Virus record (IMG/VR): IMGVR_UViG_3300049044_000016
Coordinates: 1-43,226 of that record
Strand: one strand, 5' to 3'
DNA length: 43,226 nt
Origin: a virus
Taxonomy: Duplodnaviria; Caudoviricetes
In this document: in pieces, positions 594-40,841 of the stretch
Numbering within the stretch: the stretch's first letter is position 1
Layout of the letters: each line of letters opens with the position of its first letter
Made by a program: the position numbers and the translations under genes
The notes under the pieces: model-generated
Seen by the model: only the letters and a program-made list of their open reading frames with translations
Databases searched by the model: none
What the model was told of the DNA's origin: nothing

Positions 594-3500
594 TGGCTCA
601 CCTTAATTCCATATTCTTTTTTCTTTTTATTGCGATATTTCGTATTCACTTTTTCGTAAATATCCTTGATTTTCTCTGCTTTATCTGCATCTGACATCGA
701 TGCAGGCAGAGCATTGATTTGCGAAACGATTTCATTTCCAATGTCCCGCTGATATTGCTCGTATTCTTTACCTGTGAGCTCAATCGATTTGTATTCACCT
801 GATTTTGTTGTTCCTTCAATCTTCTTATTAGGCGTTTTAGGCGCTAGCTTTTCATCGTTCGTTCGGTCAATGAGATTGGCTATTGTTACGGCTGCTTCGC
901 TGTACTGCGCTTTGTTCATCTGATAAGGATTGAGATAAGAACCAACAAACCCGCCAGCATGCTGCTTTTCTTGTCCAAGTGTTGTCATAGCTGCAGGAAG
1001 CGCTTTAGACGTATACTTTTCTGGAATAAGTCCGCCAAATGAAGGTGTACGGGATTTATAGTAGTCCAATACGTCTTTAACAAATCCTTCCCCATATGCC
1101 GTTTTACGTACCGTCTTGTCTTCTCTGCGTGCTTCTTGTGCTAAGAAGCTAGGACTAAATGATTTAGCAAACATCTCCGCTACACGCTGTATGAAGCCAA
1201 CTGATTTATCGCCTGATGTCTTATCTTGATACGATTGGACGGCTTGCTGGATACCTGTAAGAGCCGACATACCGAGTAAAGATCCAGCTGCTTCTGTTCC
1301 TGCACCTTTGAGCATTGAACCTAATCCTTCGCTCCTACGCTGTTCTAAGCCAACACCTATAGCCATAGGGAAAGCAAGTGGCTGGAACTTGTTGTAGTTC
1401 ATCTGAACATCGCCTTTTTGGAATGCTGCGGCTTTATACGGGTCTTCTCCGTTAAACAATGCCCCAATATATCGCATGAGAGCAGATGTATTTAGTAGAT
1501 ATTTTCCCCGTCCGGCTTGTTCCCTGATCTTATCTACATCTTTAAAACCACTCTCGTTAGAACCCGTGAGAATCCCAGCTCTAGAAAGTTCGTACCCGAT
1601 TGCAGATAGCCCGCCACCGCCAATTAAGCTTAATCCCATGCGGCTCAATGCATTTGCTTTAACAGCTTCATCTTTGACGAACGATAGTTCGAATAATCCT
1701 CTAAGCAAACCAACAGGAGTCAAGTCAACGGCTGTACTTGCAATGTTAATAGGTGTCTTAACGAATGGCGCAACGGTTTGAATTGGAGCTTTTGCAATTG
1801 CCGGAAGCGTATGGATTGCATTCGCAAGCTTAGCACCTGTACTCTTATTCCGTTGGAATGTAACCCGTCTTGCTTGATCATCCGCATATTCCATTGCTGC
1901 TTGATCTGGATTAGCTGCAAAGTTTTCAGCGAACCTTTTCTGATTAGCCGTTCCTTGTATTCCTTGGTTCTTCGCATTAATAAATCCTCGTCTTAACAAT
2001 TCTCTATCATACACAGTCTTATAAGTGGCATAGTCTGCACCTTTTGCAACGGCACTTAGAGAACGTTCAAGGTAGTGAGGAACAATAGATGCAATGTTTT
2101 TACCTTTGAATACAAGACCGCCTACATCGCGTGGGCCCGTCAGTCCTGCTGGATTAACGCCCTGCCAGCTTGCTCGTACACCGAATCTAAGGTTTTTGAA
2201 GTATTGTCCCATCCATGTTAATGGATTAGATTGATAGGCTGTCATTCTCCTTGGCTGTTTAAGAACTCCTGCCATCATCACATCAGCCATCGTAGCCGCT
2301 AACTGTCCGATTCTATACGTAGACGCCATAAGCGGACCAGACAATGCATTGACTAATTGGGTACCAGTATTGAGCAACATTCCGATATAACGCAGCGCAT
2401 TAGCGCGATCTAGCCAATCAGACTGTTCGAACCCATTAATAATTTTTTGCAGTTCTAAATCCGCTTCTGCTTTCTCTGCACCTTTTAATCGACTAACCGA
2501 TTGCGCAAGATCACGAATCTTTTTCACTTCCGCCTGACTCAATGATGGTGTGGAACGAAGAAATTTTTGTGCCATCTTCTCAGCTGTACCAGGAACCGCT
2601 CTATCGAATATTTTATAAGCTAGTTCATCAATATGCTTGTAGTCGATAGGTTCACCCGTTTGCGGGTCTATTTTCTTCGTTTCGTCCTTAATACCCGTTA
2701 TCTTTCGAAGCAATTTCTGCATTTCTTTAACAGACTCCGGTGTTTTGGGTTTCGTTACATCTTCTGCTTGTTTCATCTTACGTGCGATTTGAGATGACAA
2801 TTGTGCCAATTGTTTCTCTTCTGTTGTCGCCTTTGGATTTTTCAATATCGCATTAAGATTGTTTGCAGCATTATGCAAAGCTTCGATATCATCATTGTCG
2901 ATTTCTCCACGCTTCATTTTTTCGATAGAACGTTGCGTATTATACACCATTTCTTCGACTGTTTGCTTTCTAGCTTCCTTACTAATTGCTGCTACACCTT
3001 CTGCTGCACGTTCAGTCGTTATCGTAATATTACGATTCATAATACGTTTACCTTGATCAAATGCACGTTTTAAATATGGTTTAACGGAATCGCCAAACTC
3101 TTGTATCATTTCAGACGAAAAATCAGCGAATTTAACTGATTTACGTAACATCTTAGAAGCTGCAATAATTCCCATATCTACATATACATCGAATGGGTTA
3201 GCCGATAATGTATTACGTCTAGCATTCATCCTTGCTTGTGCAGACTGTTCATGTTTCGTTACCCAATCGACAATAGCATCACGTTTACGGCGTCCTGCTG
3301 GCGTGCTAGTGTCGATTGGACGGGATGGCGATAAATCAGGCTGTTTATTATCAAGGAATGCCTGCAAATCATCCTGGAAGTTACGAAGAATTCCCTGTTC
3401 TTCTGCCGTTAATAGCTCTCCACGTAACGATTTTTCGCTAATAGCCAGAACCTCATTCGCGGTATCTTGGCTTAATCCAGCCGTTTTAGCAGTCTTAGCT

Positions 3501-36845: not shown

Positions 36846-37105
36846 GCTCGTTCCACCTTTCTAAATCCACGTTTGGTCATGATATTCACGTACTGCTCTG
36901 CCGATCTGAACCCCAGTTCATCCAACCGATGATTCCATGATTTTGGTATCTTCTTGCTTGTCCCGTAGAAGCTGACTGAGCGAACCGTTACACCATCAAT
37001 AGAGTTGATAATGTGTCTGTCTCGCTCAGCCTCGTATTTTGTTAGCACGATCATATGACCTTCACCGGAACCATTTCTGTGCAGTCGATAGCCGATCTGA
37101 AACAA
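36842..37105 (-). CDS. Hypothetical protein (start likely MIVLTK)
   Basis: ORF track. Confidence 0.55.
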   Translation of the reverse strand: MFQIGYRLHRNGSGEGHMIVLTKYEAERDRHIINSIDGVTVRSVSFYGTSKKIPKSWNHRLDELGFRSAEQYVNIMTKRGFRKVERA

Positions 37106-37633: not shown

Positions 37634-37966
37634 TTATATCAGACCTTTCTCTCGCAATTTGTTAAGAATGCGCATTTCATATATAAAGTAGTCCCACTCA
37701 AGACCTCGACTCTGCAAGAATCCATCCAATATTCTATTTTCTCGTTTCTTTTGCTTTTGTATTTCTATGACCATCTCTCCGTATTTGCGGGCATCTGATC
37801 CAAAATCTAATGCTTCCATTTGAGTGGACACTAATCCAACTTGAAGTGTGTCTATCAACTCTGCATCAGGGATTTTTTTACCGTTCTTTGATGCTTCTTT
37901 CCACTCTTTCAATCTGTAATGAAATATTGTATCCAATACATCTTTGTGCATTAATGGAACCTCCAT
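37634..37966 (-). CDS. Hypothetical protein
   Basis: ORF track; follows the antirepressor. Confidence 0.65.
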   Translation of the reverse strand: MEVPLMHKDVLDTIFHYRLKEWKEASKNGKKIPDAELIDTLQVGLVSTQMEALDFGSDARKYGEMVIEIQKQKKRENRILDGFLQSRGLEWDYFIYEMRILNKLREKGLI

Positions 37967-38715
37967 TACGATATTTTCCCGTTATCAACGAGCATCTTGT
38001 GGATATATGACATTCCTTTTGGCGTTACAAGCGTTTGTGTTTTGTTTTCTATTCCACTTGTTAAATGAGTGATACTGTACTGACGAACATCGAAATATCC
38101 TCGCTTGCGATATTCTTCATATGGGAGATTATTGTCTCGTAGAATTTTCTTTTCGCGTAAGAACTCGAATAGTTTGTTGCGACCGTATCCAATCGTTTTC
38201 GCTACACGTTCCATCGTGAAGTTGTTCTTTGCACTCATTGCCGTGTCATACAATGCTACTTTCGGTGCTTGTAATGCTATCACTTCATCTTTTTCCTTCA
38301 ATTCTTCTTTAGCCGCAATGAGTTCTTGTTTTTCTACAATCCACCGCTGCGCCCGTTTAACTGGATCATCGATCATGTAGCTATCCGGCTCTGCTTGGAT
38401 TTGTTTCAGCCGTTTCTCACATTCAATGAAGTATCGACGAGCCATTCTTCCTTTTTCGTTGTTCTCGACCATGCATAGCTCTTTCGCCATATCGATTGAT
38501 AGATCATAATCAATTCGCGGTCGACCTCCGTCCGAGGTTTTCCCCGTTTTCGGGGAAAAGTCTTCACCCTCGATAAATCCGAACTTTTCAACCTTATCTT
38601 TGAACCATGTCGGAAAGTCCCGACCGATTTCCAGAAACTCATGCAGTTCGCGACCGTTTACAGTCATTCCATTTTCTGAATGGTTTACTTTGATAAGTTG
38701 CATTTCCATTGCCAC
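37966..38715 (-). CDS. Antirepressor (AntA/AntB plus KilA-C domains)
   Basis: VNGRELHEFL, LSIDMAKELCMVENNEKG, GRNKLFEFLREKKIL, TLVTPKG. Confidence 0.9.
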   Translation of the reverse strand: MAMEMQLIKVNHSENGMTVNGRELHEFLEIGRDFPTWFKDKVEKFGFIEGEDFSPKTGKTSDGGRPRIDYDLSIDMAKELCMVENNEKGRMARRYFIECEKRLKQIQAEPDSYMIDDPVKRAQRWIVEKQELIAAKEELKEKDEVIALQAPKVALYDTAMSAKNNFTMERVAKTIGYGRNKLFEFLREKKILRDNNLPYEEYRKRGYFDVRQYSITHLTSGIENKTQTLVTPKGMSYIHKMLVDNGKIS

Positions 38716-38742: not shown

Positions 38743-38979
38743 TTATGCACCTTTAACGCTCATTTTTCGAGCGTTGCGACCAAAAAAAATTTCTTCCATG
38801 CTCTTATTCGCAGTCTTAGCAATTCGGTATGCAACAGGCAGTGAAGGAGAAACCGCTCCTCTTTCTACATTGGAGTACATTGGACGCGATAGCTTTGCTC
38901 GTTTTGCAAACTCTTCCTGAGTAAGACCGAGGTCTTTTCTGGCTTTAATCAAGGCTTTAAGCGGCTTCAACTCGTTCAT
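38743..38979 (-). CDS. Cro-like HTH regulator (start MNELKP)
   Basis: LTQEEFAKRAKLSRPMYSNVERG; RBS GGGAGGTG; divergent from the repressor. Confidence 0.85.
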   Translation of the reverse strand: MNELKPLKALIKARKDLGLTQEEFAKRAKLSRPMYSNVERGAVSPSLPVAYRIAKTANKSMEEIFFGRNARKMSVKGA

Positions 38980-38996
38980 GTTTAGCACCTCCCTTA

Positions 38997-39091
38997 CGCT
39001 CATTTCGTGAACGTTGTAGCCTTAGTATACGCTCGTAAAATAAGCATGTCAACACTTTTTGCTCGATTTATGAACGTTTATTTTATGAACA
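38997..39091. promoter_or_regulatory. Lysis/lysogeny switch: minus-strand promoter TTGACA-17-TATACT (39052-39024) and four 17-bp operators
   Basis: CGCTCATTTCGTGAACG, CGCTCGTAAAATAAGCA, TGCTCGATTTATGAACG, CGTTTATTTTATGAACA; fifth copy at 38757-38773. Confidence 0.8.
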
Positions 39092-39125
39092 TTATATATT
39101 AGAATCTAAAGGAGGAAATTAAGGG

Positions 39126-39464
39126 GTGGTGAATATGGCATTTAAGGATCGTCTCAAACAATTAAGACACGAACGAGGAATTACCCAAGACATGCTTGCT
39201 GATGCAATAGATGTACCTCCATCAACCATCAGAAGGTATGAATCTTCATTAGGTATGCCCAAGCATGAACGACTCCAGGCGATTGCTAATTACTTCGGTT
39301 GTACAGTGGATTATTTATTGGAAAGGGAAGATCACGTTAAAGAAACGGGAGGAGTGTATGATTTGACGTCCAGAGATATAAGATTAATTGAGGAATTTAA
39401 GAAGCTGTCAGAAGCAGAACAAGAAAATGTCCTTTGGTTTTTAGAGAAAATAAAAAAAGAGTAG
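39126..39464 (+). CDS. CI-like immunity repressor (XRE HTH plus short C-terminal helical domain, no S24 peptidase)
   Basis: RLKQLRHERGITQDMLADAIDV...IANYFGCTVDYLL. Confidence 0.9.
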   Translation: MVNMAFKDRLKQLRHERGITQDMLADAIDVPPSTIRRYESSLGMPKHERLQAIANYFGCTVDYLLEREDHVKETGGVYDLTSRDIRLIEEFKKLSEAEQENVLWFLEKIKKE

Positions 39465-39578
39465 CTACTTCCTACTCGTTTTCTTATCAATGCTGGCTAT
39501 GTATATTTCCAGTTTATCCTTTTGAGCATCCGTTAAAGCTTTAATAGCTTCACTAAACTTGCTTACGTTCTCAGTCAC
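39465..39578 (-). CDS. 37-aa peptide resembling the repressor C-terminus; putative SOS-induced antirepressor
   Basis: RBS GAGGAGTGA, GTG start; MTENVSKFSEAIKALTDAQKDKLEIYIASIDKKTSRK; stop codon abuts the repressor stop. Confidence 0.7.
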   Translation of the reverse strand: MTENVSKFSEAIKALTDAQKDKLEIYIASIDKKTSRK

Positions 39579-39641
39579 CAGCGGATCACTCCTCAGAGGT
39601 AGTAACAGCAGCCGCGTTGTTCGTATAATCTATGATATATG

Positions 39642-39655
39642 AGAACACATGTTCG
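39642..39655. promoter_or_regulatory. LexA (SOS/Cheo) box AGAACACATGTTCG
   Basis: Matches the Bacillus GAAC-N4-GTTC consensus; lies between TTGCAT and TATCAT on the minus strand and downstream of a plus-strand TATAAT (39624). Confidence 0.85.
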
Positions 39656-39688
39656 ATGCAAGGTAAAAATTAGCAAGGTGGACAGGCA

Positions 39689-39907
39689 ATGGACATAAAA
39701 CCCGTCCGCTGCCGTATCCCAGAGATACTACACAATCAACGTAAGACACAGGTCTGGCTTGCCGATCAATTGGACATCTCACCTCAGCATCTAAACGACA
39801 TCATCCGCATGCGCTCTGTCACAGGAATTGGCATGGCAGCGAGAATAGCGCACGTCCTAAAGGTCAAGATAGACGACTTGTTTGACTGGGAATGGCACGG
39901 AGAGTAA
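39689..39907 (+). CDS. XRE-family HTH regulator
   Basis: TQVWLADQLDISPQHLNDII...ARIAHVLKVKIDDLFDW. Confidence 0.85.
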   Translation: MDIKPVRCRIPEILHNQRKTQVWLADQLDISPQHLNDIIRMRSVTGIGMAARIAHVLKVKIDDLFDWEWHGE

Positions 39908-40091
39908 GCGTCATAACGCTGCTCTACGGGTGAATACGTAGATTCACGTACATATTAGACAAAAAGAGCGAAAACCTTTCGGAGTTCGCCACCAAAATAC
40001 ATTTGCCACCATTGTAATCGTTGCCAATATAAAGATCAAGAGGAAGATTCCGATAATATCAAAGAAAGATACAAAATAGGTATAATGGAGG

Positions 40092-40841
40092 ATGAATGTA
40101 ATGAAGAAGAAAGTATTATTGGCGACAGTAGCTTTATTTGTTTTAATCGCAGGAGTCGTAAGCGCAGCTAGTATCTGGGGAACGTACAAGGGAAATGATA
40201 TTATTCGCTTGACGGTACATGGCGATCCAGTCAAGGTATCTGACGTACCAGTTATAAGCTATAATAACCGAACAATGATTCCTATCTACCTTCTGAAGCA
40301 GGCAGGCATAAATTATACTTGGGATCAGAAGAATAAAACAGTCGATATCACCAATAGCGATTTTGGTTACTCAGTATGGGCGTATTGCGCCGCATATTTT
40401 CAATATATATCGAATGCAATAGTTGATTTTACTTTTGCAACTGATCAAGCAAATACTGCAGCACTAGCCATAAATGATGGCATTGCTTCGAATGACCAGC
40501 AAGTTAAGTTTGTCGGAATAGTCCTCAACAAAATTTCAATTGCAGACCACAGTTATGATATTATTTTCGACACGTATTCAAAACAAATCCATGACTATTA
40601 TCTACAAATGAAAATGGACACTAGCGATCTATTTTCAATTGAGATTGGATATAACACTGCATTAAAATATCTAACATCAGCTTACAGTAATTTGGATAGC
40701 TACCAAAAGACTAAACAACAAAGATACTTTGATAATTTTTATTCAGACCTCAATAATGCTAATGATACGATTGTAAAAGTCAGACAAACTACCAACGACG
40801 AATTTGATCTATTTCAAAATGCTATAATTAATTCCCAATAG
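40092..40841 (+). CDS. Secreted stalk-domain (copper amine oxidase N-terminal-like) protein, AT-rich
   Basis: Signal peptide; DVPVISYNNRTMIPI...WDQKNKTVDI motif. Confidence 0.75.
   Translation: MNVMKKKVLLATVALFVLIAGVVSAASIWGTYKGNDIIRLTVHGDPVKVSDVPVISYNNRTMIPIYLLKQAGINYTWDQKNKTVDITNSDFGYSVWAYCAAYFQYISNAIVDFTFATDQANTAALAINDGIASNDQQVKFVGIVLNKISIADHSYDIIFDTYSKQIHDYYLQMKMDTSDLFSIEIGYNTALKYLTSAYSNLDSYQKTKQQRYFDNFYSDLNNANDTIVKVRQTTNDEFDLFQNAIINSQ

What the first reader, a model, noticed from the sequence alone, without database searches (positions are those of the whole stretch)
39126..39662. LexA-controlled 37-aa mimic of the repressor C-terminus: a cleavage-free SOS induction switch
Seen: the repressor is only 112 aa with no autocleavage peptidase domain, and no ImmA-type HExxH protease is recognisable nearby. 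Tail-to-tail with it is an unannotated ORF (39578-39465, strong RBS) whose core FSEAIKALTDAQKDKLEIYIASIDKK matches the hydrophobic register of the repressor tail LIEEFKKLSEAEQENVLWFLEKIKKE. A LexA box sits in the spacer of its putative promoter. Known: B. subtilis SinI inactivates SinR by mimicking its oligomerisation helices, and LexA-repressed antirepressors induce some prophages (coliphage 186 Tum). Inference: DNA damage releases LexA, the peptide heterodimerises with the repressor and induces the prophage; convergent transcription may add antisense silencing.
Basis: partly seen in the sequence, partly recalled or inferred. Interest (0 to 1): 0.8.

Follow-up and report, generated by a model that had tools for sequence, protein, structure and literature searches.

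The report
SOS-triggered mini-antirepressor of soil prophages
A soil phage carries a 37-codon gene that ends head-on against its non-self-cleaving repressor gene and sits behind a sequence matching the host DNA-damage (LexA) box; the layout recurs in 41 of 42 related phage loci, so the peptide likely wakes the dormant phage by binding the repressor's tail, as recently shown for Bacillus arbitrium phages but here without their signalling genes.

Summary
The record has a short HTH-only repressor, a tail-to-tail 37-aa ORF with a good RBS, and a perfect LexA-type box inside that ORF's predicted promoter. No ImmA or S24 peptidase match was found.

Relatives found through the divergent 72-aa HTH gene repeat the layout: 41 of 42 distinct close loci have repressor, small ORF and box. 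Only 2 of 67 more distant repressors have a perfect box downstream. Peptide type follows repressor-tail type, while the DNA-binding domain is swapped more freely. Sequence mimicry is modest (7 of 33 identical, shuffle p=0.01) and absent in the commonest class.

The mechanism is likely that of AimX–AimC in Bacillus arbitrium phages (Kabel et al., bioRxiv 2025). There a LexA-gated 29-aa protein binds the repressor, its C-terminal site is modelled, the SinI analogy is drawn, and antisense proved unimportant. This locus lacks aimR/aimP and has a divergent HTH gene instead, so it is an arbitrium-free variant, not a new mechanism. Binding and induction are inferred. This scan already reported the same layout on other DNA (eight earlier findings).

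The parts
38743..39003 (-). cro-like (AimL-like) HTH gene, first gene of the early lytic operon
   Evidence: ORF list; HTH_3 E 2e-14; followed by an AntA/KilAC gene and by recombination and replication genes
38756..38774 (.). candidate repressor operator ACGCTC-N7-GAGCGT, perfect copy near the end of the cro gene
   Evidence: 0 mismatches; pattern derived by eye from the window
38996..39077 (.). three further candidate operators (38996-39014, 39029-39047, 39059-39077); one overlaps the leftward promoter
   Evidence: 1, 2, 3 mismatches. The window-wide count at up to 3 mismatches is at chance (18 vs 15); the clustering is the signal. Three sites lie at equivalent places in L089, whose HTH is 71% identical
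39024..39052 (-). leftward (lytic) sigma-A-type promoter TTGACA-17-TATACT
   Evidence: 11 of 12 matches
39126..39464 (+). short XRE repressor (109-112 aa): HTH domain, flexible linker, two C-terminal helices; no peptidase domain
   Evidence: AlphaFold2 model with helices 79-89 and 93-108 after a low-confidence linker 66-75; 33% identical over 115 columns to the WBeta repressor wp29
39459..39477 (.). terminator-like hairpin across the two abutting stop codons, with a T-run on the minus strand
   Evidence: count not above chance (3 vs 2.3)
39465..39578 (-). 37-aa small ORF, predicted two-helix peptide; candidate antirepressor
   Evidence: homologs P0035 (89%) and P0036 (76%); model with helices 2-13 and 17-34, mean pLDDT 88; equivalent ORF in 41 of 42 close relatives
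39587..39594 (-). ribosome-binding site GAGGAGTG of the small ORF
   Evidence: sequence
39602..39629 (+). rightward promoter-like site GTAACA-16-TATAAT facing the 72-aa HTH gene; the LexA box would lie just downstream of its start site
   Evidence: 10 of 12; the -10 is poorly kept in L101, L102 and L135
39632..39661 (-). predicted promoter of the small ORF, TTGCAT-18-TATCAT
   Evidence: sequence; same geometry in L082, L101, L102, L135; a -10-like hexamer lies on this side of the box in 41 of 42 loci, against 14 of 42 on the other side
39642..39655 (.). LexA-type (SOS) box AGAACACATGTTCG
   Evidence: box at the same place in 42 of 43 distinct close loci including this one, 37 of them perfect
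39689..39907 (+). divergent 72-aa XRE HTH gene of unknown role; constant companion of the module
   Evidence: HTH_3 E 4.7e-6; used as the search handle
39935..39950 (.). inverted repeat TACGT-N6-ACGTA behind the 72-aa gene; candidate operator
   Evidence: sequence; a similar GTAC/GTAAC-spacer-GTAC/GTTAC element is visible by eye behind most of 42 relatives; not counted or tested

Best explanation
The 37-codon ORF is likely a LexA-repressed antirepressor gene: after DNA damage the host LexA would leave the box in its promoter, and the two-helix peptide would bind the repressor's two-helix C-terminal pairing domain, likely breaking up repressor dimers and freeing the lytic promoter. Shown: the anatomy, its conservation, the co-segregation of peptide type with tail type, and the absence of peptidase-family matches in the record. 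Predicted by modelling: both parts form a helix-turn-helix hairpin of similar length. Inferred from AimX-AimC and SinI-SinR: LexA binding, translation, heterodimer formation and induction. Repressor tail plus peptide appear to move between phages as one cassette, independently of the DNA-binding domain on one side and the promoter and 72-aa HTH gene on the other.
For: (1) Conservation. 61 loci were analysed; 49 scored over 80 bits with the 72-aa HTH profile, and 43 were distinct, this window included. 42 of 43 have a LexA-type box 40-62 nt upstream of that gene (37 perfect; about 0.00025 expected per locus). The same 42 have a 102-145 aa repressor and an opposing small ORF of 33-58 aa (37 found by script, 5 by inspection). 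27 of these loci were found only after the profile was built, and all 27 fit. (2) Control: 2 of 67 distinct, more distant XRE repressors from viral contigs have a perfect box within 450 nt downstream; both also have a small ORF, and one is the same contig as L095. (3) Promoter polarity: a -10-like hexamer lies on the small-ORF side in 41 of 42 loci (33 extended), against 14 of 42 on the other side. (4) Coding signal: two homologous called proteins at 89% and 76% identity; pooled pN/pS 0.37 over 6 pairs of relatives. (5) Co-segregation: peptide similarity tracks tail similarity (Mantel rho 0.49) more than the repressor's HTH (0.26) or the 72-aa gene (0.25), n=37. A peptide's nearest neighbour shares its tail class in 31 of 37 cases, against 12 by chance. 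One well-supported HTH clade (100/98) holds three tail classes. DNA conservation drops sharply at the small ORF's start. (6) Likeness to the tail: p=0.01 here. In profile comparisons the best of 16 class pairings were C-C (E 2e-5) and A-A (E 7e-4, 30 columns). (7) Precedent: Kabel et al. (10.1101/2025.11.23.689978) and Aframian et al. (10.1101/2021.09.20.460909).
Against: No experiment exists for this locus; every step beyond the DNA anatomy rests on analogy. Tail and peptide are neighbours, so recombination would move them together without any interaction, and class B, D, E and F genes overlap the tail. Loci are related, so the counts and Mantel p-values are not independent tests. Mimicry is significant in only 4 of 8 non-overlapping pairs and in none of the other 29 at p<0.05. 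The hhalign probability for class A is only 26%. Within classes A and C a peptide's own tail scored best in 4 of 8 rows; the window's margin is 34 vs 32. Shuffles destroy helical periodicity, so they are a lenient control. The pN/pS pairs were picked for at least 50% identity, one is probably spurious, and none is a class A pair. The box could equally serve the divergent HTH gene. Of 12 more distant HTH homologs left out of the count, 3 have repressor and small ORF but no box, and 7 have a box but no repressor.
Confidence: 0.8

Rival explanations
1. The peptide is an SOS-induced antirepressor but does not act as a decoy of the pairing helices; it binds another surface, such as the HTH domain or an assembled oligomer, as other small antirepressors do.
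For: No sequence likeness to the tail in classes B and D. Class A tails are acidic or neutral and their peptides basic or neutral, which fits complementarity as well as mimicry.
Against: Peptide class follows the tail, not the HTH domain. Predicted helix lengths match those of the tail.
Confidence: 0.08
2. The LexA box mainly controls the divergent 72-aa HTH gene, which is the SOS-responsive lytic regulator; the small ORF is under that regulator's control or is secondary.
For: The box is at a tight distance (40-62 nt) from this gene in 42 of 43 loci. A rightward promoter-like site exists in the window. Distant homologs keep a box without any repressor. Transcription factor plus small-antirepressor modules exist in Vibrio and Aeromonas phages (PMC11323111, passages).
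Against: The conserved -10 faces the small ORF (41 vs 14 of 42). The rightward -10 is poorly kept among the nearest relatives. This reading does not explain tail-peptide co-segregation.
Confidence: 0.06
3. The LexA-controlled transcript acts as RNA (antisense pairing or polymerase collision with the repressor gene), and the ORF is incidental.
For: Convergent layout; the ORF overlaps the repressor's 3' end by 77-101 nt in the 20 class B loci.
Against: No overlap here and a terminator-like hairpin at the junction. An ORF with RBS is kept in all classes. In phi106 and phiW23, recoded and start-to-stop alleles showed the protein is what matters.
Confidence: 0.04
4. The small ORF is a chance open frame or a relic, and induction uses an unseen protease or the AntA/KilAC gene.
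For: The record is rated 62% complete. An AntA/KilAC 'antirepressor' gene lies at 37966-38715. The peptide matches no Pfam, PHROG or NCBIfam family.
Against: Conservation in 41 of 42 relatives, with no HExxH-type ORF found near the 43 close loci by a four-motif scan. The AntA gene lies inside the repressed lytic operon and has no LexA box.
Confidence: 0.02

Closest known systems
AimX-AimC-AimL 'extended arbitrium' module, phi106/phiW23 family (Kabel et al., bioRxiv 10.1101/2025.11.23.689978: read abstract, introduction, results, discussion and two methods sections; Aframian et al., bioRxiv 10.1101/2021.09.20.460909: read passages)
   Same: Short (80-140 aa) HTH repressor without autocleavage; divergent cro-like gene; opposing 29-80 aa helical ORF at the repressor's 3' end; LexA site directly upstream of it; modelled binding to the C-terminal oligomerisation helices; explicit SinI analogy. 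The WBeta repressor is a full-length homolog (33%) with a 40-aa opposing ORF.
   Different: No aimR match in the record, and no aimR/aimP at the place where they lie in those phages. A divergent 72-aa HTH gene sits there instead, so the only apparent input is LexA. Named relatives are Paenibacillaceae. The preprint reports very few close aimC/aimL homologs outside arbitrium systems, but it searched only Bacillus group 1 genomes.
SinI-SinR of Bacillus subtilis (as described in the discussion of Kabel et al.; otherwise recalled)
   Same: A small helical protein resembling the repressor's C-terminal oligomerisation helices; XRE repressor of similar size (SinR entry 1b0n is Foldseek rank 7, a match probably driven by the HTH domain).
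   Different: No Pfam SinI match for peptide or tail. SinI is a host biofilm regulator, upstream of and co-oriented with sinR, and not under LexA (recalled).
LexA-controlled antirepressors of enterobacterial phages: Gifsy phages (PMC3121763, search listing only), 186 Tum, N15 AntC, SPC32H Ant (recalled; the SPC32H paper seen only as a reference)
   Same: SOS sensed through host LexA; repressor inactivated by binding, not cleavage.
   Different: Those proteins are larger, often encoded away from the repressor gene, and not described as copies of the repressor's tail (recalled).
Transcription factor plus small antirepressor modules of Vibrio/Aeromonas phages (Qtip; PMC11323111 and PMC10194989, passages)
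   Same: A small, non-homologous antirepressor gene paired with a regulator gene.
   Different: Those are activated by quorum-sensing or other factors and their repressors are also cleavable; here a LexA box sits in the promoter and the neighbour is a bare 72-aa HTH.

Membership tests
Extended arbitrium (AimRP-X-C-L) module | aimR receptor and aimP peptide genes upstream of the small ORF | tested here: not met
   PF22871 AimR: 0 matches in the record; the position is taken by the divergent HTH gene and a 249-aa ORF
Extended arbitrium (AimRP-X-C-L) module | 80-140 aa single-HTH repressor without autocleavage domain | tested here: met
Extended arbitrium (AimRP-X-C-L) module | divergent cro-like HTH gene leading early lytic genes | tested here: met
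   38743-39003
Extended arbitrium (AimRP-X-C-L) module | 29-80 aa helical ORF opposing the repressor's 3' end | tested here: met
   37 aa, two predicted helices
Extended arbitrium (AimRP-X-C-L) module | LexA site upstream of the small ORF (phi106 family) | tested here: met
   sequence match and conservation only; LexA binding itself needs an EMSA
Extended arbitrium (AimRP-X-C-L) module | small protein forms a heterodimer with the repressor and blocks operator binding | not testable with these tools
   needs two-hybrid, SEC-MALS and EMSA as in Kabel et al.
SinI antirepressor family (Pfam SinI, name recalled) | sequence match to the SinI/SinR dimerisation profile | tested here: not met
   no Pfam family for the peptide at E up to 0.05; no such family among the repressor's 10 hits
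SinI antirepressor family (Pfam SinI, name recalled) | two-helix hook resembling the cognate repressor's tail | tested here: inconclusive
   helices predicted in both and modest likeness; fold search of the peptide gave only generic hairpins, best Z 4.7
ImmR/ImmA-type induction | adjacent HExxH metalloprotease | tested here: not met
   record may be incomplete
Lambda cI-type induction | S24 autocleavage domain in the repressor | tested here: not met

The most novel reading that the evidence does not exclude
Paenibacillaceae prophages use an arbitrium-free, LexA-only switch in which repressor tail plus decoy peptide form an exchangeable lock-and-key cassette (at least five types here) that recombines independently of operator specificity. 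Co-resident prophages sharing a tail type could therefore cross-induce each other while differing in immunity. The always-present divergent 72-aa HTH gene, with its downstream palindrome, would be an undescribed third element that tunes or resets the switch. This LexA-only form could be the general design onto which arbitrium signalling was added.
Probability: 0.35. Interest if true: 0.68.

Novelty: new variant of a known kind. Interest (0 to 1): 0.42.

Why it matters
Many prophages of Bacillales have a short repressor with no self-cleavage domain and no ImmA protease, so their induction by DNA damage looks unexplained in annotation. This locus and its relatives give a concrete, cheaply testable answer in a family of plant-associated soil bacteria. 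They also suggest that the AimX-AimC design does not depend on arbitrium signalling. The swapping of tail-peptide cassettes across DNA-binding lineages offers natural orthogonal repressor-antirepressor pairs, and a testable prediction of cross-induction between prophages. The core mechanism is already described experimentally in a 2025 preprint, which limits the surprise.

Tried and rejected
Complex prediction of repressor residues 68-112 with the peptide, both without alignments: verdict 'no answer' (scores 0.30 and 0.31, mark 0.34, controls not folded). It is used neither for nor against binding.

Fold search of the peptide model: no chain at Z of 5 or more among 48,161; generic helical hairpins only. 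ESM Atlas: no usable hit. No Pfam, PHROG or NCBIfam family for the peptide. Rfam on 38900-40200: 0 matches at E up to 1.

A structured 5' leader over the RBS: the window's leader folds at -12.1 kcal/mol, but mean z over 36 leaders is 0.03 and only 1 is below -1.5, so it is not supported.

Expression: six RNA-library runs hold the region, and five were laid. Contigs span the small ORF in X19 and X21 and reach its full length in X22, but contigs give no strand or level and DNA may be present, so this is not counted.

Direct search with the repressor alone in viral contigs found nothing. A GenBank phage search with the 72-aa protein gave 3 distant hits. Two lie in another context, beside a large regulator gene annotated AimR in phi18-2. 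PVJ1 has repressor, a 24-aa opposing ORF and the HTH gene, with no box seen by eye between them.

Literature: six full-text searches listed no paper on an arbitrium-free, LexA-gated tail-mimic antirepressor in Paenibacillus phages. The library lacks most subscription journals, and bioRxiv supplements (such as the AimX lists and the LexA-site figures of Kabel et al.) could not be seen and may hold such cases.

Full report
Context. The window is a whole 43,226-nt virus record rated 62% complete. It encodes terminase, portal, capsid, DnaB, a Rad52-like protein, a serine recombinase and an amidase, so it is a temperate phage. Public runs that hold the region are soil and rhizosphere metagenomes; 16 of 24 may be the source. 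One run has it on a 43,129-nt contig, and contigs encoding the 72-aa protein reach 45,076 nt, so little may be missing. The host is inferred to be a Paenibacillaceae member from the named genomes with the closest modules.

Observation. The repressor (39126-39464, probably starting at 39135) has only an HTH domain. Its model shows five HTH helices, a low-confidence linker and two C-terminal helices, 79-89 and 93-108. Searches of the record for ImmA, S24 peptidase and AimR profiles each gave 0 matches. The 37-aa ORF (39578-39465) has a GAGGAGTG RBS, and its stop abuts the repressor's stop. It is modelled as helices 2-13 and 17-34. The LexA-type box at 39642-39655 is one of 3 perfect sites in the window, against 0.66 expected, and lies in the spacer of TTGCAT-18-TATCAT. 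Four candidate operators, ACGCTC-N7-GAGCGT with 0-3 mismatches, cluster at 38756-39077 around a strong leftward promoter, which supports the repressor assignment.

Conservation. I used the 72-aa gene as a handle, which does not select for anything upstream of it. Of 61 loci analysed, 49 scored above 80 bits and 43 were distinct, the window included. 42 of 43 have a box with at most one mismatch 40-62 nt upstream, 37 of them perfect. The same 42 have a 102-145 aa repressor and an opposing 33-58 aa ORF: 37 by script and 5 by inspection. The exception, L087 (Metabacillus), has another context. All 27 distinct loci found after the profile was built fit the pattern. The 12 low-scoring loci left out differ: 3 have repressor and small ORF without a box, 7 have a box without a repressor, and 2 have neither. 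As a control, only 2 of 67 distinct, more distant XRE repressors have a perfect box within 450 nt downstream. A -10-like hexamer lies on the small-ORF side of the box in 41 of 42 loci, against 14 of 42 on the other side. The module was found in 21 of 401 sampled genomes of the family at E up to 1e-20 for the 72-aa gene. These loci are related, so the counts overstate independence.

Is the ORF a gene? A search of 1.8 billion representatives returned two homologs, 89% and 76% identical, with mostly conservative changes. Pooled pN/pS over six disjoint pairs of relatives, in the parts that do not overlap the repressor, is 0.37. The pairs were selected for at least 50% identity, one is probably spurious and none is of this class, so the figure is only indicative.

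Does it belong with the tail? Tails fall into classes, assigned by eye and by one motif: A (6 loci, including the window), B (20), C (2), D (3), E (3) and a mixed remainder F (3). A peptide's nearest neighbour shares its tail class in 31 of 37 cases; the repressor's HTH does so in 25 of 37; chance is 12. Peptide similarity correlates with tail similarity (rho 0.49) more than with the HTH (0.26) or the 72-aa gene (0.25). In an HTH-domain tree the window groups (100/98) with L135 (A), L089 (B) and three D loci, and class B needs at least 5 changes on supported branches; the tree rests on 66 columns and has long branches. On the other flank, the window's 72-aa gene is closest to L101, a class B locus. 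DNA conservation ends abruptly at the small ORF's start, and one RNA-library contig follows the window up to codon 4 and then diverges. So tail plus peptide behave as an exchangeable cassette. Adjacency alone could produce this, so it supports a functional pair without proving one.

Mimicry. Peptide and tail align without gaps over 33 residues, with 7 identities and 10 shared hydrophobic positions. The score exceeds shuffles at p=0.01, and 1 of 36 other tails matches as well. Across loci the signal is significant in 4 of 8 non-overlapping pairs and in none of the other 29. Profile comparison ranks C-C and A-A first of 16 pairings, and finds nothing for B-B or D-D. Within classes A and C the own tail is best in 4 of 8 rows. 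Mimicry is therefore credible for this class, weak in size and not universal.

Mechanism. Most likely, LexA holds the small-ORF promoter off in the lysogen. After DNA damage the peptide is made, pairs with the repressor's C-terminal helices, prevents dimer formation and frees the cro promoter. The anatomy and conservation are shown; the helical folds are predicted; LexA binding, heterodimer formation and induction are inferred. Antisense action is unlikely here: there is no overlap, a terminator-like hairpin sits at the junction (not above chance), and it was excluded in the tested Bacillus cases. The role of the 72-aa gene is open; the box may control it too.

What is known. Kabel et al. (bioRxiv 10.1101/2025.11.23.689978; read: abstract, introduction, results, discussion, two methods sections) show that AimX, 29 aa in phi106 and just downstream of a LexA site, relieves repression by the short repressor AimC. 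They show a heterodimer by two-hybrid and SEC-MALS, model binding at the C-terminal domain, and compare it with SinI-SinR. Aframian et al. (10.1101/2021.09.20.460909; passages) validated that LexA site by mutation. The WBeta repressor, one of the tested AimC proteins, is a full-length homolog of this repressor. The locus therefore works like AimX-AimC, but it is not a member of the extended arbitrium family, because aimR and aimP are missing. Six paper searches listed no description of the arbitrium-free form in Paenibacillus phages; preprint supplements could not be seen. This scan has eight earlier, unchecked reports of the same layout in other genomes, and none for look-alikes of this DNA.

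Verdict. A real, conserved, unannotated regulatory gene; likely an SOS-gated antirepressor (0.8); a new variant of a known kind. Interest 0.42. The open, more novel parts are the swappable tail-peptide cassettes and the constant divergent HTH gene.

Noticed in passing
window 39935-39950 and behind the 72-aa gene in L082-L142: A CTACTCT-like word followed by a GTAC/GTAAC-spacer-GTAC/GTTAC inverted repeat follows the 72-aa HTH gene in most of 42 loci by eye; candidate operator of that protein or an RNA element.
   Followed up: partly
window 39608-39614 (small-ORF leader): GGCTG is present within 75 nt downstream of the LexA box in 21 of 42 loci (0.025 expected per locus). It can pair with the RBS region in several predicted folds, but leader energies are not beyond shuffles.
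   Followed up: partly
L088, L100, L104, L106, L108, L109, L110: Distant homologs of the 72-aa HTH have a LexA-type box about 140-170 nt upstream and a divergent 47-94 aa, mostly acidic gene, with no repressor nearby; possibly a chromosomal SOS module.
   Followed up: no
L098, L099, L103: Repressor, opposing 25-54 aa ORF and HTH gene without a LexA-type box; candidates for an SOS-independent version. PVJ1 (L145 1025-1716) looks similar, with an unannotated HTH gene and a 24-aa ORF.
   Followed up: no
L144 1-1716, L143 1-1719, L087 855-2695: More distant homologs of the 72-aa HTH lie behind a second small HTH gene, divergent from a large regulator gene that is annotated AimR in phi18-2; a possible link between this HTH family and arbitrium loci.
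   Followed up: no
window 1678-1691 and 36907-36920: Two more perfect GAAC-N4-GTTC sites; the first (CGAACGATAGTTCG) lies inside the 1608-aa ORF.
   Followed up: no
window 37966-38715: AntA/AntB plus KilAC-domain 'antirepressor' gene directly behind the cro-like gene.
   Followed up: no
window 39599-39727 and 39845-40055: A second phage matching L082 shares the promoter region and both ends of the 72-aa gene, and occurs in the same runs, so two class A modules co-occur in one habitat.
   Followed up: partly
window 40092-40841: 249-aa gene with a hydrophobic N-terminus and a copper-amine-oxidase N-terminal-like domain between the module and the serine recombinase; covered by RNA-library contigs. 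Possible lysogenic cargo; L082 has an unrelated gene at this place.
   Followed up: no
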